This document shows, piece by piece, positions 9,927 to 33,926 of a DNA stretch of 64,000 nt. How positions within the stretch are numbered: position 1 is the stretch's first letter; the number at the start of each line of letters is the position of its first letter. Both the position numbers and the translations under genes were made by a program. Where the stretch lies: assembly GCF_044324785.1 (NCBI RefSeq), contig NZ_CP172127.1; one strand, given 5' to 3'. The stretch is from Escherichia coli (GTDB lineage: Bacteria; Pseudomonadota; Gammaproteobacteria; Enterobacterales; Enterobacteriaceae). The notes under the pieces were generated by a model. That model was not told the origin of the DNA and searched no databases. It was given only the letters and a program-made list of their open reading frames with translations.

Positions 9927-10440
9927 ATGAATGCACGAAAGGCGGTACTGGCAGATAATCCGGAATTGATCCTGCGTTTGCTACAACTGAAATTTGACGA
10001 GACACTGTCGTACCCGCGCATTTCTGCACAGACCGGTGTCAGCAAAACCGCTATTTTTTCTCTGGTGAGGCGATTTCATCAGGTATTCACTGACGGGCAT
10101 CTTTCTGGTGAATATTCCTGCGTGCAACTGACCGGGCTCTTTTCCCGGGGCGATAATATTCAGCCCCGACAGTGACTCAGCCTGTAAAAACAGAGAAAAC
10201 CCGTCGGAACCGATTTTCACCAGAGTAAAAATGGAGACTTGTTCAGCAAACTCTTTTACCCGGAGCCTGTGTGGCCCAGATTGCACGAGAGTCTGGCATC
10301 AATGATAATGTTATTTTCAAATGGCTCAGACTCTGGCAAAACGAAGGGCGTGTTTCGCGGCGTCTTCCGGTAACAACCACTTCTGACGCAGGCGTTGAAT
10401 TATTACCTATGGAGATAACGCCGGATGAGCAGAAAGATCC
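9927..10440 (+). pseudogene. IS-type transposase N-terminal HTH remnant (two HTH segments in different frames; family uncertain, possibly IS630-like)
   Basis: MNARKAVLADNPELILRLLQLKFDETLSYPRISAQTGVSKTAIFSLVRRF (SD AAAGGA upstream) and, in another frame, MAQIARESGINDNVIFKWLRLWQNEGRVSRR; truncated where the ugpB remnant begins. Confidence 0.3.
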
Positions 10441-10980
10441 GATGATTCCCCTACCGCCAGCTTTTCGCCTGCGCCGGTATACGTTTCTTTATCTTTGCCC
10501 TGCATCACCCACAGGCTGGCTCCGCCGATAATGGCGTTTTGTGGTGCATCTTTCGCGTCAGCGTCGTAAGGCATCATGCCTACGCCGTAGTTGAATTTGG
10601 CGTACTCGCGAATGTTGGCAAGAGAACCGGAAGAGGCGGTGGTCATCGCGCAATCACCTCTATAGAACTTCTCGGTGGATTCATCCTTACGCCCGACGTA
10701 GATGAAGTCGCCCTTCTTGTTCATCTCCTCGAGCATGACGATGTGTTTCACCTGCTCCGGCTTGTTGAACTCCAGCACCGCGTCCGTGGCGTCAAAACCG
10801 TTGTTTTTGCTGGCAAACGGCAGACCGTTCCTGGCGCTAAAGTTTTCCAGTTGTATCCACCTCTTTGCCCATTTCCCCTTCCATAGAGTTCCAAAACGGA
10901 ATGGTCGTCACTGCCTGTGCATTGCCCATTAACGCCAGTCCGAGCACCAGTGATGAAGCTGTATAATGTAACGGTTTCAT
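10407..10980 (-). pseudogene. ugpB: sn-glycerol-3-phosphate-binding protein UgpB remnant (internal deletion, frameshift, truncated C-terminus)
   Basis: Minus-strand ATG at 10980 gives [42 protein letters not shown] (UgpB signal peptide/N-terminus), then after a frameshift jumps to ...[42 protein letters not shown]...[18 protein letters not shown] and terminates. Confidence 0.7.
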
Positions 10981-11735
10981 CGTTTATCTCTCTTGCTTGT
11001 TGTACCTGATGTGCAAATTCACTCGTTTTATGCTCGCGGGATTACATATCATGCCCGAATTGCAGAAAAATAACTTTTTATTACATGTGTAAGACAGTAA
11101 AACCTCAGAAAGATGACAGTGTGGTGCCGGCGCGGGTGAGGAAAAATGGAAGATGGGGAATGTATAAGCGGGAAAATAGGAGGGCCTGTGGATTGTAGAT
11201 AATGTGCTCATCGTTTTCATGCCGGATGAGACATAAACACTTTTATCTGAGCATTTCTATGTATTCGGACAGTTGTTCTTGGCATCCAATGGTGCAGGTT
11301 CTGTAGTGTGTGGTGGTAGCAATAGCCTCAGCTTCATTACAATATTTATTATCTCAAACATTCAAATGTCCTTGGCCCACTTTGATAGTCACTTTGTCGT
11401 GGTTATTATGTCTTTCCTTTTCCTAAAGCCCCATTATCTGTGCTGCAGCTTTCCCTCCATCAACGAACCAACAACCAGCAATGCCTGTCCCCCATAACAG
11501 CCCGGAAAATGGCACATTCTCAGATGATTTATCCCGCGAGCTATCCCGCCTACAGCTAATCGACCTGTTTAATACATCTTGACAGTCTGCTGGCAAGGTT
11601 ACCCTTCCCAATATTGTCCGTTTTTAACATATCTAATACGAGCCCCCATCAAATATGCTTCGTGTTCACTGTAAGTGACTAAAAGTGCTGTCTGCCCTGC
11701 CTCATGCAAAATATCACGAACTTCACGGCTCAGTC

Positions 11736-12237
11736 CTACCCTTGTTTTTTATCCAAGCTGGAAAATGGTTCATCTAGCAACAGGATATCTGGATTTGGAA
11801 CCAGTGACCTTGCAAGGGCAATACGTTGCTGCTGACCTCCTGAAAGTTCATGAGGATAGCTGTCTGAATAGTGGAATAAATCCACCATTTTCAACAGTTC
11901 TGTAACTCTGGTTCGCTGTACATCTCTCGGCAGTCTTCTCAGACCAAAGCCACGTTTTGTGAAACTGTAAGGTGGGGAAAGAGCGCATATTCCTGAAAGA
12001 CTATACCGACATGACATTTCTCCGGCGGAAAATGCATATCTGCGCTGGCCACACAATGCTGTGATACAAAAATTTCCCCTTGTTCAGGCGCTCAAAACCA
12101 GCTACAGCACGTAGTACTGTTGTTTTTCCACAACCTGATGTACCAAGCAGACATGCCAGTTCACCTTTACAGACTGACATACCCCCCGCCCCGCAATACA
12201 GGATATGGGCTATTGGGATAAACAACATGGACATCAT
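11736..12237 (-). pseudogene. ABC transporter ATP-binding protein remnant (frameshifted)
   Basis: Walker A LLGTSGCGKTT and signature/Walker [16 protein letters not shown]...[12 protein letters not shown] lie in two different frames. Confidence 0.55.
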
Positions 12238-12267
12238 TAATACATAAAGCTGTTTCTTCAGACATAA

Positions 12268-12868
12268 TCAATCCTCTGATTTCAGTCTTTCAGCTGGAAC
12301 AAACAAAATAACCGGAAATGTCCCTGCAAGAACAATCATTAAAGCAGAGATGGCCCCTTCTTCAAAAGTTCCACGGGCTGCTTCAGCATAAAGAAGTGTT
12401 ACTGGCAGTTCTTTCATCGCATCAGTGAAAACCAGCAGGGCACTGCTCACCAGAGCAACACAGGAAAGTGAACCCGAACAAAAGTTCCTGTACCATTTTC
12501 TCCCAGCAGACGTGAGGCTTGTTCCAGTGACTCTGGTATACGTCCCAGCCGGACATCAAGTGCGCCGATGGCTATTGCCTGAAATCGCATCGTACAGCAA
12601 ATCACCAACAGGACACCGACAGACATTAAAGGTAACCCCCTGTAATCCAGTAGTTCCGCCAGCCAGCGGTCATTTAGGGAGTCAGAAAACCAATCGCCAG
12701 AATCGTGCCTGGAAAGGCATAACCCAGCGACGCCACTCTCATCACACCGCGCCTGAACAGTGGCATAGCGTTGAGGAATTCCGGGCATTCCAGACTACGA
12801 GCAGACTGACAAAAATTACGACAAAGCGTTGAAGGAAGCCAGCGCGCGGACTGACAGGACTTTACCAT
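12268..12868 (-). pseudogene. ABC transporter permease remnant (split over three frames)
   Basis: Hydrophobic permease-like fragments incl. ...AMKELPVTLLY... and ...ALDVRLGRIPESLEQASRLLG... in successive frames. Confidence 0.45.
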
Positions 12869-12918
12869 AAAAACACAGGCTAACCGCGCCTGCGTTTTTA
12901 ATGACGGATGAAACAGAA

Positions 12919-14451
12919 TCAGGTGCCGATTATGCCGCCGTCGGCTTTTACGATAACGACAGTTGAGGAGCGCGGACGACCAGCCTTATCGCCGTCAGGC
13001 CAGCTTGATACTGCCGTCGGATGCTGCGGATCGCTAAGCCCTTCGCTTGGCTCGCCAGGGTGCTGGATGTTAATAAACAGCGTCCGGTTATCCGGAGTGA
13101 ACGCGATGCCGGTGATTTCGCAGCCGCGCGGGCCGGTCAGGAAGCGGCGGAACTCATTGGTACCGGGGATCGTCGCCACCATCTGGTTGTTGCCCATGCC
13201 TTTGTAATCTTTAATATTTATGGTTGATGACGACACGTCGGTCTGGATCCATAGCACGCCGCGGTGATCAAAGCTCAGGCCATCGGCGCTGCCGAATTCC
13301 GCACCCTTCATGCTGCCTTTGGTTTCCAGTTTGTCTGTATCGGTGCGACCGCCCATCACAAGAATATCCCAGGCAAACTGCAGCGCGGTCGGGTCACCGT
13401 TATGCTCCAACCAGTGAATGATGTGGCCGTAAACGTTTTTGGCGCGCGGGTTGGCCGCATCCACTGGCGCTTTTCCTTCCTTACCGCGATCGCTGTTGTT
13501 GGTGAGCGTGCAGTAAACGCTGCCGGCGTGATATGGATCGACCGCAATCCACTCCGGGCGGTCCATTTTAGTGGCCCCCACGGCGTCTGCCGCCAGACGG
13601 GTTTTAATCAACAGGTCGCCCTGGTTTTCAAACCCTTTACTGGCGTCGAGCCCATTTTGTCCGAACACCAGCGGTAGCCACTCGCCTTTGCCGTCGTCGT
13701 TAAATTTCGCCACGTACAGAGTGCCTTTTTCCAGCAGGTGCATGTTGGCTTTGCGATCCTGCGGGTTGAATTTTCCTTCCGAGACAAATTTATATATGTA
13801 TTCGAATTTCTGGTCATCGCCCATATAGACCACAACGCGGTTATCCGGGGCAATTGTCACCGCTGCGCCTTCGTGTTTGATGCGACCAAGCGCGGTGTGC
13901 TTGCGCGGCACTGAATGCGGATCGTATGGATCGATTTCCACCACCCAGCCGAAGCGGTTCGGCTCGTTCGGCGTGGCGTCGACGCTGAACCTTTTATCCA
14001 CTTCGTTCCAGCGGTAAGAGTCGTCGCTCCCGCTGATACCGTAACGTTTTTCCAGCGGGTTCATCTCTGCTTTTTTTACGAAAATATCGGACCAGTTCTC
14101 TTCACACGTCAGATAGGTGCCCCACGGCGTAAATCCGTTGGCACAGTTCTGCATGGTGCCGAGAATGATTTCGCCTTTCGGATCGTCAACTGTTTGCATC
14201 AGTGGGTTATGCAGCGCCGGACCGGTGATTTTCATCGGCGTGTTAACGGTGATGCGGCGTGCGAACGATGACGGGCGCACCACTTCCCAGCCCAGGGGCA
14301 CTTTTTTTACTTCAATGACCGACACGCCCATCGCGTTCTGGCCTTTAAGAGCTTTATCGGCGCTCCAGTTGGCATCGCCATCTTTAAACAGTAGACCGTT
14401 ATCGATGTATTCATGGTTTATGGCAAGCAGGCCGTGATCGGAGCTGTTCCC
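12919..14451 (-). pseudogene. phoX: PhoX-family (DUF839-like) secreted phosphatase gene, 3' part, separated from its 5' part by the prophage
   Basis: Reading frame continues exactly from the fragment at 52793-53245 across the target-site duplication (...SLPQGGN | SSDHGLLAINHEY...); the first 16 codons of ORF 12919-14499 are phage-end derived. Confidence 0.65.
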
Positions 14452-14500
14452 TGATGCGCCGCGCGATAAATGCACTCTATCTTGTGCGATAAATGGCATC
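14452..14500. repeat. Prophage left terminus with two putative transposase-binding motifs
   Basis: GATAAATG at 14465-14472 and 14488-14495; mirrored at identical offsets at the right end. Confidence 0.6.
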
Positions 14501-14529
14501 CACGCGGCGTTTCATTATTTGAAAAAGAA

Positions 14530-15102
14530 TTACATTTCAGGTTGCGTTATGACAGTCCCAACAGGGTGGTAGCGGTAGATCGTTGACAGTCCAATATCAT
14601 AGATAATTGCCAGCCGCTTTCTGTCATACCCTTTCTGGAGCAATCTTGCGATCTGCTCATGCTGCTCCTTCGTCAGTTTCGGGCGACGTCCTCCAACTCT
14701 TCCTTGTGCTCGCGCAGCAGCCAGTCCTGCCAGCGTGCGCTCAACTATCAGTTCACGCTCCATTTCTGCCAGTGCACCCATCATATGAAAAAAGAACCTT
14801 CCCATCGGAGTGCTGGTATCGATTGAATCCGTCAGACTGCGAAAATTGACACCTTTTGCGCGTAGCTCTTCTGTGAGAGCAATGAGGTGTTTCATTCTTC
14901 TACCCAACCGATCCAGCTTCCAGACCACCAATGTATCCCCTCTTTTAAGGCACTTTAAAGCGCGTTTCAGGCCTGGTCGTTCCGACTTGGTTCCGCTCAT
15001 TTTGTCCTCAAAAATCTGTTCACATCCTGCGCACATTAATGCATTGCGTTGCAAATCTGTGTTTTGGTCATTTGTTGACACACGTATGTAGCCAATCAGC
15101 AT
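14530..15102 (-). CDS. pin: Site-specific DNA invertase, Hin/Gin/Pin serine recombinase family
   Basis: MLIGYIRVSTNDQNTDLQRNAL...GDTLVVWKLDRLGR...MGALAEMERELIVERT is the invertase catalytic domain plus C-terminal HTH; adjacent to tail-fibre cassettes. Confidence 0.9.
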   Translation of the reverse strand: MLIGYIRVSTNDQNTDLQRNALMCAGCEQIFEDKMSGTKSERPGLKRALKCLKRGDTLVVWKLDRLGRRMKHLIALTEELRAKGVNFRSLTDSIDTSTPMGRFFFHMMGALAEMERELIVERTLAGLAAARAQGRVGGRRPKLTKEQHEQIARLLQKGYDRKRLAIIYDIGLSTIYRYHPVGTVITQPEM

Positions 15103-15147
15103 TAAAAATACTCCCTTTTGAGTGGTTAAAGTACTGAGATAATGTGG

Positions 15148-15173
15148 GGAGGATTTGAGAGATAAACGTTGGT
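15148..15173. other. Putative invertase crossover site A (gix/pix-like), core AAACG-TT-GGTTT
   Basis: Core AAACGTTGGTTT at 15155-15166 at the start of the conserved ~200-bp fibre box; identical inverted core at 16779-16790. Confidence 0.45.
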
Positions 15174-15686
15174 TTAGGAGAAGGCTCGGCGCTACCCGTT
15201 GGTGTGCCTGTTCCGTGGCCCACCGCCACACCGCCAGCAGGCTGGTTAAAGTGCGACGGGCGCGCCTTTACAAAAGAACAATATCCTGTTCTGGCCAGAG
15301 TCTACCCGACCCTCCGTCTTCCCGATTTACGCGGTGAGTTTATCCGTGGATGGGACGACGGGCGCAAAGTTGATACAGGACGTAAGTTGCTGTCCGCACA
15401 AGGGGCAACGCTGTTAAGAACAGCAATGCTGGATTATTATAACCAGGACACTACGGGAACCTCGGGGATAGTCGGCATGGGATTCAACAATGAAGATTCC
15501 ATTACAGACCTTCGTGAGGGCAGCTTTAAAATGCCGGACGGGACAACATTCAGCGATCCTGTCGTGGCAATGTCAGACAATGGTATGCAGGCTACTATTC
15601 TGACCTCTATCAGAAGCGGGTATGCGAAGGGTATCACTGTCAGACCCCGTAGCATTGCACTTAATTACATTGTGAGGGCAGTTTAA
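15150..15686 (+). CDS. Tail-fibre C-terminal cassette 3 (start-less alternative variable domain)
   Basis: Frame opens after TGA at 15147-15149 with no ATG; encodes the conserved box GEGSALPVGVPVPWPTATPPAGWL...RGEFIRGWDDGRK then a unique C-terminus ending NYIVRAV. Confidence 0.7.
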
Positions 15687-16300
15687 TGAGTAACACTGCA
15701 GTTCTGGATGAAAACGGTATCGCCACTGTAGCGGGCGAGATCACTGTATATCACTATGACGAGGAAACCCGGGAATACACCTCATCCTCTGTGGAGTATC
15801 TCGCCCTTGGGGTGGGTACTCCGGCACATTCGTGCGCCGATGCACCGCCGGAGGCAATTTCGGGTTACGTGGTTTGCCGGACTGCCACGCTGAACGGGTG
15901 GGAGCATGTGCCTGATCACCGCGGCGAGACGGTATACAGCACGGAGAACGGTAACCCCGTTCTGATTACCCAACCGGGTGATTACCCGGCGGACACCACC
16001 ACAAAACAGCCGGCCACGCCATGGGATACCTGGAACGGTGAGGCGTGGGTAACCGATACTGAACGGCAGCGAGCCGCAGAACTGGAGGTTGCCAGACAGC
16101 AACGCCAGCAACGGGTGAAACAGGCGATGGCGTCCGTCGATCTTATCAACCTCAAACTGCGTGCTGGTCGCAGTCTGACACCAGAAGAAACGGCAAAACT
16201 GAACGCCGTGCTGGATTATATCGACGAGCTGAACGCACTGGATATCAGCACGGCACCTGAAATCAGCTGGCCGGAAGCGCCACTGGCACTTGCCAGCTGA
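15686..16300 (+). CDS. Tail fibre assembly protein (Tfa/U-like)
   Basis: ATG overlaps cassette-3 stop (TAATG); 204 aa, in the position and orientation of a Tfa chaperone for cassette 3. Confidence 0.65.
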   Translation: MSNTAVLDENGIATVAGEITVYHYDEETREYTSSSVEYLALGVGTPAHSCADAPPEAISGYVVCRTATLNGWEHVPDHRGETVYSTENGNPVLITQPGDYPADTTTKQPATPWDTWNGEAWVTDTERQRAAELEVARQQRQQRVKQAMASVDLINLKLRAGRSLTPEETAKLNAVLDYIDELNALDISTAPEISWPEAPLALAS

Positions 16301-16306
16301 ACGGTA

Positions 16307-16780
16307 TCACGCCGCCCTCACGATATAGTTAAACGCGATATTGCGGGGGCGGGTTATGTTAAAGAATGCTCCGTTTAATTCGGCTTTTGCGCGACTGTTT
16401 GTTCCACCCAGAATTGCGTACCACAAATAATCGCTACGGTAATTCCCCGCAAACACCTTATCGCCGCCATAGTCAATATTATTTCCGTTACTCATGTACG
16501 AGATATCCAGCGAAGAATCGTTATCGTCATGACCGCCGACCAGTGTACCTTTCTGCCATGAAAGCAACTTACGCCCCTCGTCAATCTTGCGCCCGTCGTC
16601 CCATCCACGGATAAACTCACCGCGTAAATCGGGAAGACGGAGGGTCGGGTAGACTCTGGCCAGAACAGGATATTGTTCTTTGGTGAACGTAGCTCCGTTG
16701 CACTGTAACCAGCCTGCTGGCGGTGTGGCGGTGGGCCACGGAACAGGCACACCAACAGGCAATGCAGAGCCTTCCCCCAA
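16307..16780 (-). CDS. Tail-fibre C-terminal cassette 2 (unfused alternative variable domain, TTG-initiated frame)
   Basis: Begins with the same conserved box as cassettes 1 and 3 but has a different distal sequence; lies directly after the main fibre stop in +1 frame. Confidence 0.55.
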   Translation of the reverse strand: MGEGSALPVGVPVPWPTATPPAGWLQCNGATFTKEQYPVLARVYPTLRLPDLRGEFIRGWDDGRKIDEGRKLLSWQKGTLVGGHDDNDSSLDISYMSNGNNIDYGGDKVFAGNYRSDYLWYAILGGTNSRAKAELNGAFFNITRPRNIAFNYIVRAA

Positions 16781-16798
16781 ACCAACGTTTTTATGCGG
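16773..16798. other. Putative invertase crossover site B (inverted relative to site A)
   Basis: + strand AAACCAACGTTT at 16779-16790 is the reverse complement of the site A core. Confidence 0.45.
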
Positions 16799-18719
16799 CC
16801 CTTACGATGTAATTAAACGCAACATTGCGGGGGCGCATTGATATCCATGCCCCGGTAAAATTATCCTCCGCTGTCCTTTGAATACCCGTTATAGAGTTAT
16901 CTGCTGATGCAGGAACATAATCGCTATTATTTCCTGCTTTAGGATTAGCTGGGTTTCCAACGGTTATAACAGAATCAGCAGTAGCAAAAGCGATACCTAC
17001 TTTGACATTAGTATTCAGATCGTAACCGTAATAATCCTGCAAAGCTGTACGAATAAATGTTGCAGCCTGACCACTTAGCAATGAACGCCCCGTATCAACT
17101 TTGCGCCCGTCGTCCCATCCACGGATAAACTCACCGCGCAAATCGGGAAGACGGAGGGTCGGGTAGACTCTGGCCAGAACAGGATATTGTTCTTTTGTAA
17201 AGGCGCGCCCGTCACACTTTAACCAGCCTGCTGGCGGTGTGGCGGTGGGCCATGGAACAGGCACACCAACAGGCAGTGCAGAGCCTTCCCCCAAACCAAG
17301 GTAATTGAGGACATCTTTTATACTGCCCTTAGCGATAATAGCGCGACCAATAGCTGTAAGGGTTGCCAGCGCTGCGCGGTCTGCTCCGGTAAAATAAGGC
17401 AACCGATCTGCTGCAGTGGCAAGTCCTGCCAGAGCAGTGAGCGTGGCATCTGCCGGTTGTTTTCCGTTTGCCAGATCGTATGCAGCCTTGACCGCTTTCG
17501 GTGTGGCGGCCAGTATTTCAGACGTGCTGTTGATGGCACTGCTCAATTGTATGGTGCCTTTTGCCGTCAGCGAGGCAGCAGGCACTCCCGTTATCTGACT
17601 CCACGGGTGAGTGTGGCTGACGGGCGCCTTGCCGGCTGCAAGGTCGTATGCAGCCTTGACCGCCTTCGGCGTGGCAGCCTCAGTTTCTGATTGACTGTCC
17701 GTGGCGCTGCTCAGTTGTACGGTGCCTTTTGCCGTCAGCGAGGCAGCAGGCACTCCCGTTATCTGACTCCACGGGTGAGTGTGGCTGACGGGGGCCTTGC
17801 CGGCAGCCAGGTCATATGCAGCCTTGACGGCCTTTGGTGTGGCGGCCAGCGTTTCAGAGGTGCTGTTGGTGGCACTGCTCAGTTGTACGATCCCTTTACG
17901 GGTCGTTGTTGCATCCTGGGCTGTGTATTTTCCCCGGGCCAGATCATACGCGATTTTCACAGCCTTCGGCGTGGCAGCCTCAGTTTCTGATTGACTGTCC
18001 GTGGCGCTGCTCAGTTGTACGGTGCCTTTTGCCGTCAGCGAGGCAGCAGGCACTCCCGTTATCTGACTCCACGGGTGAGTGTGGCTGACGGGGGCCTTGC
18101 CGGCAGCTAGGTCATATGCAGCCTTGACGGCCTTTGGTGTGGCGGCCAGCGTTTCAGAGGTGCTGTTGGTGGCACTGCTCAGTTGTACGATCCCTTTACG
18201 GGTCGTTGTTGCATCCTGGGCTGTGTATTTTCCCCGGGCCAGATCATACGCGATTTTCACAGCCTTCGGCGTGGCAGCCTCAGTTTCTGATTGACTGTCC
18301 GTGGCACTGCTCAGCTGTACGGTGCCTTTTGCCGTCAGCGAGGCAGCAGGCACTCCCGTTATCTGACTCCACGGGTGAGTGTGACTGACGGGTGCCTTGC
18401 CGGCTGCAAGGTCGTATGCAGCCTTGACGGCTTTTGGTGTGGCGGCCAGCGTTTCAGAGGTGCTGTTGGTGGCACTGCTCAGTTGGGTGAACCCCTTAGC
18501 TGTCAGTGTCGCGTCCGGGTGGTTACGGGAACGTACGTGTTCAGCCAGTGACTGTGCGGCTTCCTCCGTTTTTTTCTTCAGCCATTTCGTCCTGTTTGCC
18601 AGTTGCCGGGGGGCTCGATTTGATATCCCGTCAGCACCACCCAGAACCGGATCTGATGTCTCCAGTTGATAGATTTTTTCTTCCCACTTTTCTGTTTCAT
18701 TCAGGTTTCCCATAATCAA
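16791..18719 (-). CDS. Tail fibre protein (642 aa) with internal repeats and C-terminal cassette 1
   Basis: Repeated QLSSAT..SET.AATPKAVK.AYDLA.GK fibre repeat motif; C-terminal region carries the conserved box and ends NYIVRAA. Confidence 0.85.
   Translation of the reverse strand: MIMGNLNETEKWEEKIYQLETSDPVLGGADGISNRAPRQLANRTKWLKKKTEEAAQSLAEHVRSRNHPDATLTAKGFTQLSSATNSTSETLAATPKAVKAAYDLAAGKAPVSHTHPWSQITGVPAASLTAKGTVQLSSATDSQSETEAATPKAVKIAYDLARGKYTAQDATTTRKGIVQLSSATNSTSETLAATPKAVKAAYDLAAGKAPVSHTHPWSQITGVPAASLTAKGTVQLSSATDSQSETEAATPKAVKIAYDLARGKYTAQDATTTRKGIVQLSSATNSTSETLAATPKAVKAAYDLAAGKAPVSHTHPWSQITGVPAASLTAKGTVQLSSATDSQSETEAATPKAVKAAYDLAAGKAPVSHTHPWSQITGVPAASLTAKGTIQLSSAINSTSEILAATPKAVKAAYDLANGKQPADATLTALAGLATAADRLPYFTGADRAALATLTAIGRAIIAKGSIKDVLNYLGLGEGSALPVGVPVPWPTATPPAGWLKCDGRAFTKEQYPVLARVYPTLRLPDLRGEFIRGWDDGRKVDTGRSLLSGQAATFIRTALQDYYGYDLNTNVKVGIAFATADSVITVGNPANPKAGNNSDYVPASADNSITGIQRTAEDNFTGAWISMRPRNVAFNYIVRAA
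17286..17311. other. Putative crossover site C inside the main fibre gene (one half-site degenerate)
   Basis: Reverse complement reads TCAATTACC-TT-GGTTTGGGGGAA; right half conserved, left half diverged. Confidence 0.3.
17290..18510. repeat. Tandem ~300-bp coding repeats within the tail-fibre gene
   Basis: Shadow ORFs 17779-17994 and 18079-18294 are identical (300-bp period); 17834-18088 and 18134-18388 near-identical; protein shows about seven copies of a 45-55-aa motif. Confidence 0.75.
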
Positions 18720-19306
18720 CTGCTCCCGTGGTTATAACTGCCATCATGGATGGCGGTATTGTTATAGCGAATGGCCACAGACTGATACTCCAGGCTGGCC
18801 AGATGGCAGCGGGCCGGTGCAAATGCAGCGAGCGTCTGACGCAGCATCGCGGCCTGATCGTTAGTAATGGGCTGTTTCAGAATAACGCGATAAACCGCCC
18901 AGGCGGCTGCATCTCCATGAACAAACAGTCCGTTATAGCTGCGATTGCCGTCGTAACTGAGACGACCTGTGCCTTCAATCAGATCCACTTCACCAAAGCC
19001 AAAACGGCGGATAACTTCCCGGATTGACCACGGCGTCCCTTTATACCGGTGTAGTTCGATGGCTGCTTTTATAAGCATGCGGCGAACATCGTCCGATTCC
19101 GCCAGCTCCCAGCCATCGCCAGACAGTGAGAACTGCTCGCCCAGCCATGGCAGCGCAGAACTGTCGACGATATCGACGAGAAAGACCATCAGTACGCTCA
19201 GGTCGATGTTATCCAGCCGCCCTGCCAGTCTTCCCAGCGTCCTGAGACTGATATCACCCTCAAGCGGTGGCGGGAGTTGTAATGGCTCAGTCATCAGACA
19301 CTCCAC
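18716..19306 (-). CDS. Baseplate/tail protein, P2 gpI-like
   Basis: Position between baseplate J and tail fibre; size and context. Confidence 0.65.
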   Translation of the reverse strand: MECLMTEPLQLPPPLEGDISLRTLGRLAGRLDNIDLSVLMVFLVDIVDSSALPWLGEQFSLSGDGWELAESDDVRRMLIKAAIELHRYKGTPWSIREVIRRFGFGEVDLIEGTGRLSYDGNRSYNGLFVHGDAAAWAVYRVILKQPITNDQAAMLRQTLAAFAPARCHLASLEYQSVAIRYNNTAIHDGSYNHGSS

Positions 19307-20390
19307 TCATGTTAAGTGTGATCGCCGTACAGTTTGCCCATTCGTTTTCTGCCACCACCCTCAGTGCCGGTGTCACCAGTTCAACCTGGTACACCCCGGA
19401 AACGGACAATGCACTGATAATCTGGCTGGGGACAATATCACGCCCCAGCGTGGCGGCACGTGATGCCACCCAGTTCTGTATGGCGCTGTTAGCGGCATCT
19501 TTTACAGACCTGGCATCCTGATCACGATAGATCGTAATCCTGGCTTCAATGGTGTAATCCACCTTCACTGGTGTTTTAGCCCGCACTGTATCAGTGAGTG
19601 GCCTGACTTTCTCATCAGAGCAGAAACTCTCTACCAGCGTGAGAACACCGCCGTCCGGCAGACCGGTACTGAGCAGCGGATACAGATCTACGGTCCCGGG
19701 AACCGGGGAAAGCACAGCAACATCGACAATGTTGGGATGGGCCTGCATGGCATGAAAGCGGTATGCGCCACGGCTTCCGGCATTGGTGAATGACTCCGGG
19801 GCCAGCCTGATACGCTCCCGGAGCCTGTCATCGTCTTCCTGTTCTGAACCGCCGGAACTGGCCGTCAGATTGCTCACCAGCAGGTCGACGTTATCAATCT
19901 CATCGAGTAACTGACTGACCTGCGCAGGTTGCCAGCCGTTACCAGCGGTACCGGGTTCGGTACAGGTGGACGTGACATTGACCAGCAGCAATCCGGCCTT
20001 CAGTACCACATCTGTATCGGTGGCAAAAATAACGCTGTCGGAAGCGCTGACGCGGGTGCCTGCCGGGATCAGCACATCAATGGTCAGTGCCTCATCCACA
20101 GAGAACTGAAGTGTGGTGGTGGCAGGCTGCGCGGCAAGGCGGTATACACCAACCAGTTCTCCGAGGTAATCAATCATCGGCTCTCGTGAAAAGGCGACCA
20201 GATTCTGCTTTGCTGCCTCCTGTACCGCAACCCTGACCAGCATTTCGCGATAGGCCCACAGATCAATCAGCAGACGTTCTGCCTGTGCCGGGTACAGCGT
20301 TTTGCCGGTATCCGCTTCATACTTCGCAATCATTTCTGCCGTGATTTTGTCGGCATCGCGTTCAATAAAATCGGGTTCTGTCAGCGCCAT
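19287..20390 (-). CDS. Baseplate protein J-like
   Basis: 367 aa, conserved order W-J-I-fibre. Confidence 0.8.
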   Translation of the reverse strand: MALTEPDFIERDADKITAEMIAKYEADTGKTLYPAQAERLLIDLWAYREMLVRVAVQEAAKQNLVAFSREPMIDYLGELVGVYRLAAQPATTTLQFSVDEALTIDVLIPAGTRVSASDSVIFATDTDVVLKAGLLLVNVTSTCTEPGTAGNGWQPAQVSQLLDEIDNVDLLVSNLTASSGGSEQEDDDRLRERIRLAPESFTNAGSRGAYRFHAMQAHPNIVDVAVLSPVPGTVDLYPLLSTGLPDGGVLTLVESFCSDEKVRPLTDTVRAKTPVKVDYTIEARITIYRDQDARSVKDAANSAIQNWVASRAATLGRDIVPSQIISALSVSGVYQVELVTPALRVVAENEWANCTAITLNMSGVSDD

Positions 20391-20728
20391 AGCAACTCCT
20401 GAGTCCGGGTCTGTCCGTCTGAGCCTTTCCAGCTCACCCGGAGCGTAAGATGTTCGCCGTCGACGGCGGGTTTAACTGACATAAGCTGGCAGCGGGGCTC
20501 CCAGCGTCGGATGGCATCGACGGATTCGCGCACCACATGCGGAATGGCCCGGTCTACAGGCCAGTCGATATAAAGATGCAGATTGCTGCCGAACTCCGGG
20601 CGATGCGGGTCGCTGCCGCGGGGAGTCCGCAGGATAATTTGAATCGCCTGCCGGATATCATCCAGCCCCCGGACAATTTCGCCGGGAGCCTGCAGGGTCG
20701 GTTGCCAGAATACTGAGGTTGTTTTCAT
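20381..20728 (-). CDS. Baseplate protein W-like (gp25/lysozyme-like fold family)
   Basis: 115 aa; context between spike V and J. Confidence 0.75.
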   Translation of the reverse strand: MKTTSVFWQPTLQAPGEIVRGLDDIRQAIQIILRTPRGSDPHRPEFGSNLHLYIDWPVDRAIPHVVRESVDAIRRWEPRCQLMSVKPAVDGEHLTLRVSWKGSDGQTRTQELLWR

Positions 20729-20782
20729 GGGGGCAGTATTGCCCCCGTGCGGGAACGCTGATATTAAAGGCGTTTAAAAAGC

Positions 20783-21379
20783 TCAGTGGGAGTGGTGGCT
20801 GGAGTTTTCGCCATCAGACAACATACTGCCCGTGGCATGGGCATTCCCTTTAATCTCGATATTGCCATGGATGGTCGCGGTAACACCTTCACCACCAGAA
20901 CCCGCCATGCCTCCTTCGTAAATCAGCTTACCCCTGACACGCAGATCTCCGGTAAGTTCGGTTTCCGGTGCGTCAATCGTGGCTTTCTGTGTTTTCAATA
21001 CCACATCAGCACCACACTCAATGACAATATGCTCAATGCCGCCCCGGATGATCAGAGTGTGCGTCTTCCGGTTGTAGCTGTACTCTGCACCATCAGCAAA
21101 CCGGGTTCCCCGGATATTTTTGTCACTGAACGGTGGTTTATCGACGTCTGAATACACCGCGCCCAGAATAACACCATCCTCGCCGTTGGCATCGAGCAGC
21201 ACCTCAACCTGCTCCCCCACGTCAGGGAGCCAGTAATCTTTGTTATCCTGGGTATTGCGCTGCAGCACGTTAAGCCAGTTTGTGCGCAGGTTATCGCATT
21301 CAGGCAGACGAACGCGGGCCTGAACCCTGTCGGCATCAACGGCACTGACCGTACCGACCTGACGAGTGACACCAGTCAT
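20783..21379 (-). CDS. Baseplate spike/assembly protein V-like
   Basis: 198 aa, glycine-rich C-terminus with HxH motifs (SSHHSH) typical of spike tips. Confidence 0.75.
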   Translation of the reverse strand: MTGVTRQVGTVSAVDADRVQARVRLPECDNLRTNWLNVLQRNTQDNKDYWLPDVGEQVEVLLDANGEDGVILGAVYSDVDKPPFSDKNIRGTRFADGAEYSYNRKTHTLIIRGGIEHIVIECGADVVLKTQKATIDAPETELTGDLRVRGKLIYEGGMAGSGGEGVTATIHGNIEIKGNAHATGSMLSDGENSSHHSH

Positions 21380-22548
21380 TTTTTCTTCTCTCTTATTACT
21401 GTGGACGTGCTGCCGTCCGGTTTATAGATGGTCAGCATCCGGGTTTTGCCGATTTTTTTACCTTTCTTCGCCTTGCCCTGTGTGATCGGCCCCCGTGCCA
21501 CTTCCAGCTCTGTGGTGTAGCCGCTGTTACGGTCAAACGCATGGCGGGCAGTGGTTATGAGCCATGGCCCGGATAACTGCCCAAAACCCACCAGTTCAAT
21601 TTTGTTGCCTGCTGTCAGTTGAGGTGTTCCCGTCAGCGTCAGGGAGCCGTTCTGCTGGTATTCGTTATGTCTGGCCAGTGCTGAATCCGCTTTAATCCGG
21701 GCACTGTCCGGGTCGCTGACGCGGCTGTTAACTTTAAGTGAGTCAGCGCTGGTAACCTTACCACCTTTGAGCTTTTTGTCGCTTTCACGGGTACCACCAT
21801 CAGCTTCGTAGACGATCAGTTTTTTACTGCTGCTTTTCTGGTGTTTTACCTTTGCAGATTTATAGACCCGGTTGATGGTGTCACGCAGGGAAAAGCGGGC
21901 CACATCCTGCGGTTTTAACTGCCTGACCGGCTCCTGACTGCGCAGTGTGGCCAGATGAGAAAAAATCAGCTGGTCACTGACCACTTTCACTGCATAACCA
22001 TACTCGCTGGCCAGCCGGCGCAGAAAACCCACGTCGGTTTCAGCATACTGGGTCACCCGGTCGATTCTGATGGACTCAATGCTGCCCACCAGTTTCAGCC
22101 GGTGCTTTCTGGCAATCCGCCCCGCAACAGCTGCCAGCGTGGTGTTCTCAAAACCACGACTGGTTTTAGTCCGCAGGGCACTGTTAACCGAGGTGGCCAC
22201 CCCACGGATAGAAACAACGGAAGCGGGCGAACTCACTTCGATCTCGTCTATAGAGAACGTACCGCAGGACAGCAGCTTCTCGTCCTGATAGCCCATTTTC
22301 AGCGTCAGCGTGTCACCCTTGCCCGGATACCACTTATCCAGCCAGCGGCCATCGGTGTCGTCCAGCTCCACCTCAATGGTATCGGACTCATTTTTGATGT
22401 TATCGCTCCAGGTCACACGGGTGACATAAGGCGCGATATCAGAGGTGATGTTTTTCTGCAGATACCACAGAGTGAACACCGGTGTCAGCACATCGCTGAC
22501 GCCGGTTAACGCTGATGTGACTTGCGCAGTGCTGTTTATCTCAGCCAT
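21376..22548 (-). CDS. Baseplate hub protein (P2 gpD / Mu gp44-like)
   Basis: 390 aa, position after tail protein X. Confidence 0.7.
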   Translation of the reverse strand: MAEINSTAQVTSALTGVSDVLTPVFTLWYLQKNITSDIAPYVTRVTWSDNIKNESDTIEVELDDTDGRWLDKWYPGKGDTLTLKMGYQDEKLLSCGTFSIDEIEVSSPASVVSIRGVATSVNSALRTKTSRGFENTTLAAVAGRIARKHRLKLVGSIESIRIDRVTQYAETDVGFLRRLASEYGYAVKVVSDQLIFSHLATLRSQEPVRQLKPQDVARFSLRDTINRVYKSAKVKHQKSSSKKLIVYEADGGTRESDKKLKGGKVTSADSLKVNSRVSDPDSARIKADSALARHNEYQQNGSLTLTGTPQLTAGNKIELVGFGQLSGPWLITTARHAFDRNSGYTTELEVARGPITQGKAKKGKKIGKTRMLTIYKPDGSTSTVIREKKK

Positions 22549-22751
22549 GGGGCAATATCCTCTTCTGTACGGGCTTCTTCAGCCTCAATCACCGGGATCA
22601 GTAACAACAGCCCGGAGGGCAGCACCGGCGTGATGGCCACGTGCGGATTGGCGGCAATAATCCGGGGATAGCCCAGCGGGTCACCGTAGTACTGCCATGC
22701 CAGCGAATCCCAGCGCTCTCCGTCACGGGTAACATGTTCAAGAAACATCAC
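22536..22751 (-). CDS. Tail protein X-like (small LysM-like)
   Basis: 71 aa with WDSLAWQYYGDP...IAANPHV...GLLLLIP pattern. Confidence 0.7.
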   Translation of the reverse strand: MMFLEHVTRDGERWDSLAWQYYGDPLGYPRIIAANPHVAITPVLPSGLLLLIPVIEAEEARTEEDIAPWLR

Positions 22752-23632
22752 ACACTCCTCGTCAGTATTCTGGCGGCCATTGCACTTAATCCCGGAGACA
22801 TGCGGTTGAATGCTGTTCCGACGGCGTTAAGCTGCCCGGAAACGGTATCCAGAGCACCTGCAATATTTCTTTTGTCCACACCACTCAGCGCAGACTGTGC
22901 CTGCTGTACATACGTGGCTGCTTCGCTGGCTGTTCTGGCCAGACTGATGGCATCGGGCATGGATTCAGAGAGTGCGTTAAACGCCGGAACACTTTTCCCC
23001 AGAGCCCCGGAGATATTACCCAGTCCGCTCATCAGCCCCGGCACACGGGTCAGTGCGACAACGGGGTTATCCTTCATTTTCTGTGTCACCCGAACGGCGC
23101 TGATAGTGGTCTGGAGTACAGACTGCGCCTGTTTCGCATAGTTGACGCCGTTGCGGATGAACTGCGCCACCCCGGAAGGTGAAGGAATGGCACCGGAGAC
23201 CGCCCCGACACCCGGGAGCTTCGTGCGTATTGCCGGTGGTTGCAGAGGATTTTTCGGGTCACCGGTGTATTCCCGGAGAGACACGGTGGCACTGACAGCC
23301 AGCACGTTGCCGGTACTGTCAGTCTGCTCGCTGGTTGCAGTCACATCGGTAATCACGAACCAGCCGCGATAGTCACCGTTGCCGAAGACCAGCGCCAGTG
23401 CCTGATGGGCTTTCATGGCTGTTCGCAGTCTCGCCAGCTCCACATCGGGTACACAATAATGCTGATGGAAAACCAGAGTTATCTGGATTTCGTCCAGCCT
23501 GTCGCCGACGAACTGCAGGCCAGGCTTACCCCCGATGCGGGCATGCTCCGCATAATCGACGCCGAACGTGGCCTCGAAGCCGTCCCAGTAGGTAATCAGC
23601 TCAAACTCAATATCACCCAGTACGGCAAACAT
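22748..23632 (-). CDS. Tail protein (P2 gpU / Mu DNA-circularisation protein N-like)
   Basis: 294 aa between tape measure and X; assignment by position. Confidence 0.5.
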   Translation of the reverse strand: MFAVLGDIEFELITYWDGFEATFGVDYAEHARIGGKPGLQFVGDRLDEIQITLVFHQHYCVPDVELARLRTAMKAHQALALVFGNGDYRGWFVITDVTATSEQTDSTGNVLAVSATVSLREYTGDPKNPLQPPAIRTKLPGVGAVSGAIPSPSGVAQFIRNGVNYAKQAQSVLQTTISAVRVTQKMKDNPVVALTRVPGLMSGLGNISGALGKSVPAFNALSESMPDAISLARTASEAATYVQQAQSALSGVDKRNIAGALDTVSGQLNAVGTAFNRMSPGLSAMAARILTRSV

Positions 23633-26600
23633 CAGCGGTACTCCTTACGTTGTTTCTGAGCCAGCAGACGCTCCAGCATTTTTTCCAGCTCATGCAGACT
23701 CATATTCAGGGCACCAGTCAGTCCTGCAGGCGCTGTGGTTTCCCTGCCATTGAGGAAAAACTGAGGATTAAAGCTGACCTGGATACCACCAGACGTTCCA
23801 CCGCCGGTTGCAGCTGCACCACGGCCTGAATATCCGGCAGCCAGGATTTCAGGCGAGGGGATACGGGGAACATCCGGTGTCATCTCATTTGCCAGACGTT
23901 GCCCTGGTAAAATCGATGCCCGGGTGGAGAGCGGAATAACGGGCATGGAAGACAAACTATTGATTACGGCTCCGATCGCATTTTTAGCAGACGACATAAA
24001 CCCATTGATATCGGGCAACGGCATACTGAAGCGAACACCTGAAGTGTTATCCCGTATTTCTGGCCCCTGAATGCTCACGGGCATTCTGGGGAGCAGTTCA
24101 CTGGCCATTCGCTGCCCGGCCAGAGCTGCAAGCGGAGTGGTCCGCTGCAGGCCAATGGCGGCCCCCTGCGCGATATTGTCACCAAAGCCCATAAACACGC
24201 GGCTCGGCGAATGAATGCCCAGCTTTTCGCTGAACCAGCCACTGATGCTGTCACCCATTCCGGTTACACTGGATTTGAGCGACTCCCATTTGTTTTTGAT
24301 ACCGTTAATCAGACCGTCGACAAGATGGCCACCGAAGTCGGTGAACTTTGCCGGCAGATCAACACCAAGATATTTCAGCGCAGCTGCAAAGGCTTTATAG
24401 AGCAGACCTGCCGGCGACCAGTTAATCAGCAGCTTACCAGTTCCCGCGATACCGCCGTTAAAGGCTTCCTGAATGTCAGCCCAGCACTGTTTAAACCAGC
24501 TACTGATGCTGTCACCCATTCCGGTTACACTGGATTTGAGCGACCCCCATTTGTTTTTGATACCGTTAATCAGACCGTCGATAAGATGGCCACCGAAGTC
24601 GGTGAACTTTGCCGGCAGAGCAACGCCGAAATATTTCAGCGCAGCCGCAAAGGCTTTATAGAGCAGGCCTGCCGGCGACCAGTTAATCAGCAACTTACCA
24701 ATTCCCACAATGCCGCCGTTAAAGGCTTCCTGAATGTCAGCCCAGCGCTGTTTAAACCAGCTACTGATGCTGTCACCCATTCCGGTTACACTGGATTTGA
24801 GCGACCCCCATTTGCTTTTGATACCGTTAATCAGACCGTCGATAAGATGGCCACCGAAGTCGGTGAACTTTGCCGGCAGAGCAACGCCGAAATATTTCAG
24901 CGCAGCCGCAAAGGCTTTATAGAGCAGGCCTGCCGGCGACCAGTTAATCAGCAACTTACCAATTCCCACAATGCCGCCGTTAAAGGCTTCCTGAATGTCA
25001 GCCCAGCGCTGTTTAAACCAACCACTGACAGCCCCCCAGTTGCGGTAGATAAGGTAAGCTGCTGTCGCGACAGCGGTGATAACGAGACCGATGGGATTCA
25101 TCATCAGCGCTCGCCCAATCCAGAGAACGGCACGTGCAGCGCTCATAAAACCGCGAACGAGGCTGCCCGCCAGAACTTTGCTGAGTTTCAGTCCTCCGCT
25201 GGTCAGTCGGCTGAATCCAGTGACAAGCCAGCGTAATTTGCCACCTTCTCCGAGTGCGGTAGTCAGTCGATGCCAGTTGGTCCGGAGTAAAACAGTAGTT
25301 TTCCAGACGTTCACAAAGGGGGAAATAAGGAGATTCAGCCCCAGTTTGAGACCAATAGTCGCTATCTTAATCGCAAGGAGCGCACTGATGAGCTTAAAAG
25401 CCCCACTGACAAATTGCGGGTGAGTCGCTACCCAGTGTTTTGTCCCCTGAATGAGTGGGAGCAGTTCCTGAGTCAGAGAAATAAAAGATGGAGCTAATTG
25501 ATCGCCCAGCGTAATTGCCAGATCGCGACTGCTGACCATAAGTGTTTTAGTGGCTTCAAGGGGAGATTTCAGCCGCTGATCATAAGCACTGGCAAGCAAA
25601 TCGTTATCCGCAGCCCTGAGAGCACCGGCACGGATCTCTCGATATCTGTCCATGTTGGCCAGCATCGGGCGGATAAATGCCATGACCTGCATATCCGCGA
25701 ACATATCGCCCAGACCAAAGTTTTTCGCCAGAGCCTGAAGTGCCTCATCTCTTGCCGTATCATTCTTTATTTTCATGGCTGATTTGAAGCCGGCCAGCGC
25801 TTCGGGGCTTTTGGCATTGAGGTAACGTTCTATAACACTCAACATCCCTTCAATCGGAGAGATCCCCGCAGCTTTATAACTCGCAATAGATCCCTGCAAA
25901 TCAATACCCAGATCAGCAAACTGTTTCTGAGTATCGCGGGCAAAAATTTTGGTAAGAAAGTTTTTAAAATTATTGGCTGCTTCGTCGGTGGAACCTGCAC
26001 CGATTTTTGCTATCTGGAGACTGGCCCCGATTTCAGCAACAGCCTCTTTTCCACTGGCAAGACCCGCCATCATTGGGGCCAGGGACTGCATCCACTTGAC
26101 CTGATCCGGGATTTCAAATGACCCCTGGTCACCGGCATAAGCCATAATATTCTGAACGGCACCAAAATCTCTGGCCGCACCTTTCAGGGAGTTTTGCCAG
26201 ACTGCGGCCACTTTTGCCCAGTCCTGAGCAGACGTGCGTGTTGCCGTTGCCGCGCGGGCAATATCCGGCATCAGAAAACCGATATCTGACACATTATCAA
26301 TATTGTCGCTGATGAGTGAACCCACCGCCTCCTGCAGCTCATCCTGATACTGATTGTATTTAAGCGCCCAGCCTTTTATCTGTCCGGCAAGTGCATCCCG
26401 CGTTTTATTGTCATATTTTGCGGTGATCGACATATCAATCATTTTGTCCTGAAAAGACATGGACTGCTGAACGGCAGGGGAAACCGTATGATAAACAGTC
26501 TGTGCCATGCCATACGCTTCAATCCCCTGACCATACAGCGCCATGCGGTTAGCTTTCAGCGCATCACTGGTAGCGGATGCCGCTGACAGACGGCGCTGCT

Positions 26601-26844: not shown

Positions 26845-26919
26845 AGTGGTTAACCTCCGGGGAAGGTGAAAAGACGTGAGGGGATAACGCAGAACAGCCG
26901 CTACTGGCGGCTGTCTGTA

Positions 26920-27177
26920 CTATGATTTGTCGCCGTACTCGCTTTTGATTTGCTCTTCAGCCTGCTCCAGCCACATCTCCAGATCGTCAGTATCGAGGGC
27001 ATCAATCTCCCCCGGCTGAAACCGGAACCATCTCGCCAGCAGCCCCTGCGCCTGCGTCAGCGCCCTGGTTGCTCTCACCCATCCCCGTGATGAGCTGAAA
27101 TCGTTTCTGTAACTGCAGGTAATCAGCCAGATCCATATTGTCGAGATCTTCCGGGAGAAGACCAGTACTGCGGGCAA
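26920..27177 (-). other. Overlapping +1-frame extension of the tail chaperone (putative programmed-frameshift product)
   Basis: Second frame overlaps the last ~58 codons of the chaperone and continues 27 codons past its stop (...GEIDALDTDDLEMWLEQAEEQIKSEYGDKS). Confidence 0.4.
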
Positions 27178-27337
27178 TCAGCGGTTCGTCCCAGTCTGCC
27201 GGGTTTTTGCTGATTTTGCGCACCTGCTTCAGGTCTTTTACCGTCAGGCGTTTCAGTTCAACCAGCTCAATTCTGGTGCCTGCAGCAGTGGTGAAGGGAT
27301 AAGACAATTTAAAAGTATCGGATGGGGTCTGTGACAT
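27002..27337 (-). CDS. Tail assembly chaperone (upstream frame)
   Basis: 111 aa immediately upstream of tape measure. Confidence 0.6.
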   Translation of the reverse strand: MSQTPSDTFKLSYPFTTAAGTRIELVELKRLTVKDLKQVRKISKNPADWDEPLIARSTGLLPEDLDNMDLADYLQLQKRFQLITGMGESNQGADAGAGAAGEMVPVSAGGD

Positions 27338-27434
27338 GATTGTGCTCCTGTGTAAGTTCAGGGCAGTATGTCGGGAGAAGCGCGTGACGGATATTAAAGG
27401 AGATTAAGAAGAAGGGGCCGGAGCCCCTGTGATG

Positions 27435-27716: not shown

Positions 27717-27718
27717 CG

Positions 27719-30815: not shown

Positions 30816-30819
30816 CATG

Positions 30820-31158: not shown

Positions 31159-31167
31159 AACGCCTCC

Positions 31168-32121: not shown

Positions 32122-32135
32122 GCTCTCTCCTTAAA

Positions 32136-33924: not shown

Positions 33925-33926
33925 TG

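What the first reader, a model, noticed from the sequence alone, without database searches (positions are those of the whole stretch)
11736..12868. Decayed ABC importer (permease and ATPase both frameshifted)
Walker A and signature/Walker B motifs of the ATPase lie in different frames, and the permease is split over three frames. Together with ugpB and phoX this shows clustered loss of nutrient-acquisition functions, typical of a genome region under relaxed selection.
Basis: seen in the sequence. Interest (0 to 1): 0.25.

Follow-up and report, generated by a model that had tools for sequence, protein, structure and literature searches.

The report
Dead iron-importer genes in E. coli island
This stretch is the broken remnant of a ferric-iron ABC uptake system (half a permease gene and a frameshifted ATPase gene), carried as inert baggage in an IS-rich Escherichia coli genomic island and already annotated as pseudogenes in more than 50 public genomes, so it is real but ordinary.

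Summary
On the minus strand there is a permease fragment (about 12830 to 12268; residues 359-554 of a 562-aa fused permease). An ATPase pseudogene follows it (12265 to 11599).

Against three intact homologues:
- The ATPase carries four 1-nt frameshifts, so Walker A lies in a different frame from the signature and Walker B motifs. It also has an H-loop His-to-Tyr change.
- The permease fragment carries three 7-nt deletions, which put it in three frames, and a 39-nt in-frame deletion. It lacks its first 358 codons. The binding-protein gene is absent.

The lesions are not sequencing errors. The same sequence occurs at 99.7-100% identity in about 54 complete E. coli genomes, where NCBI's annotation pipeline (PGAP) already marks both genes as pseudogenes.

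The ancestor was an FbpABC-type ferric-iron importer. The closest intact relatives (Buttiauxella, Citrobacter, Klebsiella-type) are only 72-84% identical in protein.

The "regional relaxed selection" reading is only partly right. The window is a mosaic genomic island full of IS debris. All lesions predate the island's spread in E. coli. phoX is intact and under purifying selection in other strains, and is broken here only by a 38.3-kb BcepMu-like transposable prophage. The ugpB fragment comes from an unrelated, Escherichia-like source. Interest is low.

The parts
11599..12265 (-). ATPase pseudogene (fbpC-like, short 227-231-aa type). Four frameshifts, H-loop His to Tyr, stop after ...GQYWEG.
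   Evidence: aligned to residues 1-218 of three intact ATPases, 73% identity over aligned codons, with shifts at 12181 (+1), 12080 (-1), 11949 (-1) and 11746 (-1). PGAP annotates the same span as 'ABC transporter ATP-binding protein, frameshifted' (L001 12600-13266 corresponds to window 11599-12265). Pfam ABC_tran E=1.5e-30 on the frame-restored protein.
12268..12830 (-). 3' fragment of the fused two-domain permease gene (fbpB-like). It covers residues 359-554 of 562 and is spread over three frames.
   Evidence: 82-84% identity over aligned codons; 7-nt gaps near 12775, 12672 and 12454; a 39-nt in-frame gap near 12403. PGAP: 'iron ABC transporter permease, frameshifted, missing N-terminus'.
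12121..12144 (-). Walker A motif GTSGCGKT
   Evidence: Translation of 12180-12082.
11769..11846 (-). ABC signature LSGGQ (11846-11832) and Walker B ILLLDE (11786-11769), in a different frame from Walker A.
   Evidence: Translation of 11948-11748. Two -1 shifts lie between this stretch and Walker A.
11671..11673 (-). H-loop codon TAC (Tyr) where His is expected.
   Evidence: His in 115 of 115 intact homologues. Overall the window differs at 8 of 95 near-invariant columns, against a mean of 0.75 for intact homologues.
12876..12892 (.). GC-rich hairpin flanked by an A-run and a T-run, about 25 nt after the phoX stop. It is probably the phoX terminator and marks the junction between the phoX block and the truncated permease.
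   Evidence: (terminator-like site) and the sequence. The role as phoX terminator is inferred.
12919..14451 (-). 3' part of phoX (codons ~150-659), 100% identical to the intact phoX of other strains.
   Evidence: (Pfam PhoX E=3.5e-150).
14452..52792 (.). 38,341-bp BcepMu/phiE255-like transposable prophage inserted in phoX.
   Evidence: the L001 sequence resumes at 52793; termini TGAT...ATCA; target GTTCCC duplicated; Mu-type transposase and MuB-like protein present.
52793..53245 (-). 5' part of phoX (codons 1-~150).
10407..11238 (-). ugpB fragment (UgpB residues 4-45 and 225-335 of 439) with about 258 bp of its upstream region. It is unrelated to the ABC remnant.
   Evidence: NF008211 UgpB, E=7.6e-63 and 1.1e-11; 87-91% nt identity to chromosomal ugpB in two pieces spanning 1230 bp against 775 bp here.

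Best explanation
Window 11599-12830 (minus strand) is a non-functional relic of a three-gene ferric-iron ABC importer of the FbpABC type: a periplasmic Fe3+-binding protein, a fused two-domain permease and a short ATPase.

Shown:
- The binding-protein gene and the first 358 codons of the permease are gone. The break lies directly after the phoX terminator-like hairpin.
- The remaining permease segment has three 7-nt deletions and a 39-nt deletion.
- The ATPase has four single-base indels, has lost the catalytic H-loop histidine and has changed other near-invariant residues.
- The DNA has a lower G+C than its intact relatives and carries excess amino-acid change.
- The same lesions occur in every E. 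coli copy.

Inferred:
- The single-base indels arose by slippage at short homopolymers.
- The lower G+C is drift towards A+T after inactivation.
- The operon died before the island radiated in E. coli, either in an unsampled enterobacterial donor or early in the island's history. It has since been carried passively inside a tRNA-associated, IS-riddled genomic island, and later IS or deletion events trimmed it further in some strains.
- It does nothing now. No promoter-like site lies within the remnant itself, and a terminator-like hairpin lies just upstream of it.
For: - Homology and lesions: (three references, three alignment methods, same indels).
- Family: in intact relatives the operon is SBP 345 aa, permease 562 aa, ATPase 227-231 aa. 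The SBP matches the Bordetella iron-binding protein PDB 1Y9U at E=1.6e-150, and FbpA 1Q35 at 3e-84.
- Real, not artefact: 100% identity over 1501-2001 nt in many genomes, 54 complete genomes with the full remnant, and PGAP pseudogene calls.
- Old lesions: the second island variant (BEN2908, about 1% diverged, further truncated at ~12388) shares all three 7-nt deletions.
- No closer intact copy: the best ATPase is 74% aa in 5.8 billion proteins, the best permease 83-84%, and the best plasmid match 68% nt.
- Decay signatures: dN to intact relatives is 0.17-0.21 (ATPase) and 0.11-0.13 (permease), against 0.06 and 0.03 between intact relatives at similarly saturated dS. GC3 is 34% and 46%, against 55-69%. 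Identity to outgroup ATPases is 57-60%, against 64-69% for the sister clade. Eight of 95 near-invariant ATPase columns are changed, including the H-loop His.
- No Rfam family or tRNA lies in the region. The two promoter-like hits (11192-11220 and 11382-11409) lie outside the remnant and do not exceed the number expected from shuffled sequence.
Against: - Nothing contradicts pseudogene status.
- The place and time of decay (donor or early island) are inferred, not shown.
- Synonymous sites are saturated, so dN/dS cannot date the inactivation.
- An intact E. coli homologue lineage (P0028) also has a long branch, so part of the divergence may be deep ancestry rather than decay after inactivation.
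- Expression was not tested.
Confidence: 0.93

Rival explanations
1. The frameshifts are sequencing or assembly errors in an intact operon.
For: The four ATPase indels lie at short homopolymers (G-run at 12181, A-run at 11746, C-run at 11949), a context prone to platform errors.
Against: The sequence is identical in dozens of complete genomes from unrelated laboratories, hosts and countries. The 7-nt and 39-nt deletions, the missing 358 codons and the missing SBP gene cannot be homopolymer errors. The H-loop His is lost.
Confidence: 0.01
2. One reading: a resident E. coli nutrient-uptake region is decaying gradually in place, under relaxed selection that affects ugpB, the ABC importer and phoX together.
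For: Three uptake or scavenging genes in 4 kb are broken in this window. Between island variants the pseudogene diverges about twice as fast as phoX: 0.8-1.2% against 0.6%.
Against: - phoX is intact in the other carriers, with mostly synonymous variation. Here it is broken by one prophage insertion.
- The ABC lesions are fixed and identical in all carriers, and no intact E. coli ancestor exists above 68% nt identity.
- The three relics come from different sources: the ugpB fragment is 87-91% identical to chromosomal E. coli ugpB in DNA, the ABC remnant is at best 68% identical to any intact homologue in DNA, and PhoX is at best about 80% identical in protein to Franconibacter or Enterobacter.
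- They are separated by IS debris and abrupt junctions.
- phoX is not next to this transporter in 80 phoX loci of other genera, nor in the intact operons.
Confidence: 0.05
3. The remnant still has a function, for example a stand-alone ATPase made by programmed frameshifting, a small membrane peptide from the 113-aa ORF 12447-12788, or a regulatory element for phoX.
For: The sequence is kept at 99.7-100% identity in the carriers. Gene callers predict the 113-aa ORF in many assemblies (P0149, 47 member sequences).
Against: - The high identity is explained by recent spread of the island, since the flanking DNA is equally identical.
- Some strains carry a further truncation or a 52-bp duplication within it.
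- A stand-alone ATPase would need four frameshifts in both directions and would lack the invariant H-loop His.
- No Rfam hit, and a terminator-like hairpin lies upstream.
Confidence: 0.01

Closest known systems
FbpABC / SfuABC / HitABC-type ferric-iron ABC importers (periplasmic Fe3+-binding protein, fused two-domain permease, ATPase)
   Same: In the intact relatives of the remnant, the operon order is SBP, then a 562-aa fused permease, then the ATPase. Their SBP is a close sequence relative of the solved Bordetella iron-binding protein 1Y9U and of Mannheimia FbpA 1Q35. PGAP names the permease 'iron ABC transporter permease'.
   Different: The ATPase of this subfamily is short (227-231 aa) and lacks the C-terminal regulatory domain of the ~350-aa FbpC/AfuC. 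It scores far below the NCBIfam cut-offs for the ferric (168 against 496 bits), PhnT and ThiQ equivalogs. In the window only a dead half-permease and a dead ATPase remain. The substrate of the subfamily has not been tested here.
RefSeq/PGAP pseudogene annotation of the same locus in E. coli (e.g. EOV66_RS04980 and EOV66_RS27825 in strain XDL)
   Same: Same sequence (100% identity) and same call: 'ABC transporter ATP-binding protein, frameshifted' and 'iron ABC transporter permease, frameshifted, missing N-terminus'.
   Different: PGAP gives no indel count, ancestry or family assignment. Those were worked out here.
afuB'/afuC remnant in the CP4-6 cryptic prophage of E. coli K-12 (recalled from my own knowledge, not tested here)
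   Same: It is another truncated ferric-type ABC permease with its ATPase, carried in horizontally acquired DNA of E. coli.
   Different: It is a different lineage. The window's remnant has no nucleotide match in most E. coli genomes (113 of 5426), and the ATPase fails the PRK11432 ferric ATPase cut-off.
Intact homologous operon in E. coli CX21 and on Klebsiella pneumoniae plasmids
   Same: 68% nucleotide identity over permease plus ATPase. Protein identity is 84% (permease fragment) and 73% (ATPase). Gene order is the same.
   Different: It is intact, sits in a different genomic context (between IS elements in the dha region), and has no phoX neighbour.

Membership tests
ABC importer ATPase (nucleotide-binding domain) | Walker A, Q-loop, LSGGQ signature, Walker B with catalytic Glu, and D-loop, all in one reading frame | tested here: not met
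   All the motifs are recognisable ([32 protein letters not shown]), but they are spread over frames separated by four 1-nt indels.
ABC importer ATPase (nucleotide-binding domain) | H-loop (switch) histidine | tested here: not met
   Tyr (TAC, 11673-11671) where 115 of 115 homologues have His.
FbpABC-type ferric-iron importer | Cognate periplasmic FbpA-family binding-protein gene in the operon | tested here: not met
   The intact relatives have it. tblastn of that SBP finds nothing in the 64-kb window. The nearby SBP fragment is UgpB.
FbpABC-type ferric-iron importer | Complete fused two-domain permease of about 520-560 aa | tested here: not met
   Only residues 359-554 of 562 are present, with three 7-nt deletions and a 13-codon deletion.
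FbpABC-type ferric-iron importer | Orthology of the remnant to permease and ATPase genes of operons that encode an FbpA-like SBP | tested here: met
   The best hits of both parts are the permease and ATPase of such operons. SBP against 1Y9U gives E=1.6e-150.
FbpABC-type ferric-iron importer | Transport of Fe3+ | not testable with these tools
   Inferred from sequence similarity of the partner SBP to solved iron-binding proteins only.
2-aminoethylphosphonate (PhnSTUV) / thiamine (ThiBPQ) / AfuABC equivalogs | Score above the NCBIfam equivalog cut-off | tested here: not met
   Intact relatives score 257 against 458 bits (PhnT2), 102 against 593 (PhnU2), 163 against 245 (ThiQ) and 191 against 496 (ferric PRK11432).
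Pseudogene (non-functional relic) | Multiple disabling lesions relative to intact homologues, reproducible across independent genomes | tested here: met
   Seven frameshifting indels, a 5' truncation and a lost catalytic residue, identical in about 54 complete genomes.

The most novel reading that the evidence does not exclude
All three frameshifts in the permease remnant are contiguous 7-nt deletions, while all four ATPase frameshifts are 1-nt homopolymer indels. If the 7-nt events are not coincidence, they would be the footprint of a specific mutational process (for example a particular nuclease or repair pathway, or templated replacement) acting on this DNA in its former host. A second weak possibility is that phoX (an iron-dependent phosphatase, from my own knowledge) and a ferric importer once formed a functional module. 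No synteny supports that.
Probability: 0.04. Interest if true: 0.3.

Novelty: already known. Interest (0 to 1): 0.08.

Why it matters
It matters little by itself. It is a clean, quantified example of a dead transporter operon hitch-hiking in an E. coli tRNA-associated island, and it is already flagged as pseudogenes in RefSeq.

The practical points are these:
- The locus should not be counted as an iron-uptake or virulence determinant when these islands, which also carry iha, are scored.
- The lesions are shared markers that can be used to trace the island's lineage and its later erosion (truncation at ~12388, the 52-bp duplication, IS insertions).
- In this particular strain the neighbouring intact phosphatase gene phoX was knocked out by a transposable prophage, not by slow decay.

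Tried and rejected
- Looked for a less decayed or intact copy, and found none closer than 68% nt or 74-84% aa:
  - 5,426 complete E. coli genomes, distant blastn.
  - 72,556 plasmids.
  - The 5.8-billion-protein collection, with the frame-restored ATPase and permease fragment.
- Tested whether phoX and this transporter are ancestrally linked. In 80 phoX loci from other genera there are only weak paralogous ATPase hits of 45% identity or less. The intact operons have no phoX neighbour. Rejected.
- Tested whether the nearby SBP fragment belongs to the same transporter. It is UgpB, and the true SBP has no match. Rejected.
- dN/dS dating failed because synonymous sites are saturated.
- Looked for homology of the 360 bp between the ATPase stop and the ugpB upstream block (11239-11598) to the downstream regions of the intact operons. 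None found.
- Rfam and tRNA scans of the region and of the whole window found nothing.
- Two literature searches for a description of this phoX / iha / pheV island found nothing relevant.
- No repeat or motif explaining the three 7-nt deletions could be seen in the alignments.

Full report
**What is there.** The window is Escherichia coli DNA. Window 9000-14451 is 100% identical to many complete E. coli chromosomes. In those genomes NCBI's pipeline annotates, on the minus strand:
- an 'ABC transporter ATP-binding protein (frameshifted)', corresponding to window 11599-12265;
- an 'iron ABC transporter permease (frameshifted; missing N-terminus)', corresponding to window 12268-12822;
- directly upstream of these, on the same strand, an intact 659-aa PhoX family gene.

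The Walker A motif GTSGCGKT is in one frame. LSGGQ and ILLLDEP are in another. The permease-like text is spread over three frames.

**Counting the lesions.** E. coli CX21 carries an intact homologous operon at 68% nucleotide identity: SBP 345 aa, permease 562 aa, ATPase 227 aa. The protein search found the closest intact ATPases at 72-74% identity in Buttiauxella, Rahnella, Citrobacter and related bacteria. Their contigs show the same three-gene operon.

tblastn of the CX21 proteins hits the window in frames -1, -3 and -2 for the permease and in three frames for the ATPase. I then ran a frameshift-aware protein-to-DNA alignment with three references, and all three gave the same result.

| Gene | Aligned span | Lesions |
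|---|---|---|
| ATPase | residues 1-218, window 12265-11611, 73% identity | +1 nt near 12181; -1 nt near 12080, 11949 and 11746; in-frame +3 nt near 12254 |
| Permease | residues 359-554 of 562, window 12825-12298, 82-84% identity | contiguous 7-nt gaps near 12775, 12672 and 12454; 39-nt in-frame gap near 12403 |

A pairwise DNA alignment and a MAFFT alignment of four sequences reproduce these gaps. The single-base indels sit at short homopolymers.

The H-loop histidine, present in 115 of 115 intact homologues, is tyrosine here (TAC at 11673-11671). In total 8 of 95 near-invariant columns are changed, against a mean of 0.75 in intact homologues.

The first 358 permease codons and the binding-protein gene are absent. 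The SBP of the intact operon has no tblastn match anywhere in the window. Permease homology starts about 50 nt after a terminator-like hairpin (12876-12892) that follows the phoX stop codon.

**Not an artefact.**
- The full remnant occurs in 54 of 5,426 complete E. coli genomes at 99.7-100% identity. One further copy has an extra 52-bp tandem duplication.
- About 34 more genomes keep only window 12382-12900 at about 99% identity.
- In BEN2908, one such variant, the fragment has the same length as in the window, so it shares all three 7-nt deletions. It differs at 6 of 519 positions.

The lesions are therefore real and older than the diversification of the island in E. coli.

**What it was.** The SBP encoded by the intact operons matches the solved Bordetella iron-binding protein 1Y9U at E=1.6e-150, and also FbpA 1Q35 and other ferric-binding proteins. 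The permease is the fused two-domain type. The ATPase is a short form that fails every NCBIfam equivalog cut-off, including PhnT2, ThiQ and ferric PRK11432.

The best-supported ancestry is therefore an FbpABC-type ferric-iron importer of a subfamily that has not been characterised. Iron as the substrate is inferred from sequence only.

**Signs of long neutral drift.**
- Non-synonymous distance from the window to intact relatives is 0.17-0.21 for the ATPase and 0.11-0.13 for the permease. Between intact relatives it is 0.06 and 0.03, at similarly saturated synonymous distance.
- GC3 is 34% (ATPase) and 46% (permease), against 55-69% in intact relatives.
- Identity to outgroup ATPases is 57-60%, against 64-69% for the sister clade.
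- Caveat: an intact E. coli lineage (P0028) also has a long branch, so part of the distance may be deep ancestry rather than decay.
- No closer intact copy exists in E. coli, in plasmids or in the large protein collection.

The region is a mosaic island. In strain 1517k it lies next to tRNA-Phe beside yqgA and speC. It carries an integrase, sugar-utilisation genes, a type I restriction system, many IS66, IS3, IS5 and IS21 remnants, remnants of an integrating conjugative element, and iha. In BEN2908 a variant lies at a tRNA-Leu.

The ugpB fragment (10407-10980, with upstream sequence to 11238) corresponds to UgpB residues 4-45 and 225-335. It is 87-91% identical to chromosomal E. coli ugpB, has a ~455-bp internal deletion and abuts IS66 debris. 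It does not belong to the ferric-type transporter.

phoX is intact in the other carriers. It differs between the two island variants by 9 synonymous and 3 non-synonymous changes (0.6%), which is a purifying-selection pattern. PhoX's closest relatives outside E. coli are about 80% identical (Franconibacter, Siccibacter, Enterobacter). None of the 80 phoX loci examined has this transporter nearby.

In this window phoX is split at about codon 150 by a 38,341-bp insertion (14452-52792):
- The phoX sequence resumes at 52793, and the target GTTCCC is duplicated.
- The insert encodes a Mu-type transposase, a MuB-like protein, a DNA invertase, a portal protein, a terminase and a tape-measure protein.
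- Its transposase is 98% identical to that of Escherichia phage PhiKM and 68-69% identical to those of BcepMu and phiE255.

The three broken genes therefore have three separate causes: an old imported relic, IS or deletion damage, and a recent prophage insertion. This is island patchwork, not uniform relaxed selection acting on one region.

**Verdict.** The pseudogene interpretation is right. The regional-decay interpretation is only partly right. The feature is already annotated in public genomes and is ordinary.

The one oddity is that all three permease frameshifts are 7-nt gaps. With references only about 70% identical in DNA, this cannot be resolved and may be chance.

Noticed in passing
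window 14452-52792: A 38.3-kb BcepMu/phiE255-like transposable (Mu-type) prophage is inserted in phoX at about codon 150. Its termini are TGAT...ATCA and the target GTTCCC is duplicated. Its G+C is 55-60%, higher than the flanking island. The transposase is 98% identical to Escherichia phage PhiKM. None of the 5,426 complete E. coli genomes has this junction.
   Followed up: partly
window ~12775, ~12672, ~12454: All three frameshifting lesions in the permease remnant are contiguous 7-nt gaps, and together they restore the original frame. The ATPase lesions are all 1-nt indels. No repeat or motif was seen at the 7-nt sites.
   Followed up: partly
window 10407-11238: A ugpB fragment with its upstream region is 87-91% identical to the chromosomal E. 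coli ugpB, has a ~455-bp internal deletion and is cut by IS66 debris. It looks like a captured piece of an Escherichia-like chromosome inside the island.
   Followed up: partly
window 11239-11598: 360 bp between the ATPase stop and the ugpB upstream block show no detectable homology to the regions downstream of the intact operons. No ORF in this stretch was recognised as a gene remnant.
   Followed up: partly
L003 5321-5372 (corresponds to window 12720-12771): Strain 23CRST013 carries an extra 52-bp tandem duplication inside the permease remnant, a further strain-specific decay event.
   Followed up: yes
L004 ~6007 (corresponds to window ~12388): In about 34 E. coli genomes (e.g. APEC BEN2908, island at tRNA-Leu) the ATPase and the 3' end of the permease remnant are deleted. 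Only the stretch from 12382 to phoX remains, next to an outer-membrane protein gene and a phosphoethanolamine transferase gene.
   Followed up: partly
window 56622-63699 (corresponds to L001 18924-26001): The same island carries the adhesin/siderophore-receptor gene iha and two integrating-conjugative-element genes (TIGR03756 and TIGR03757) with internal stops.
   Followed up: no
window 1-9000: A type I restriction enzyme R subunit gene, a RhuM family gene, mobI, and IS3 and IS5 debris are 100% identical to the pheV-side island of chicken E. coli 1517k.
   Followed up: no
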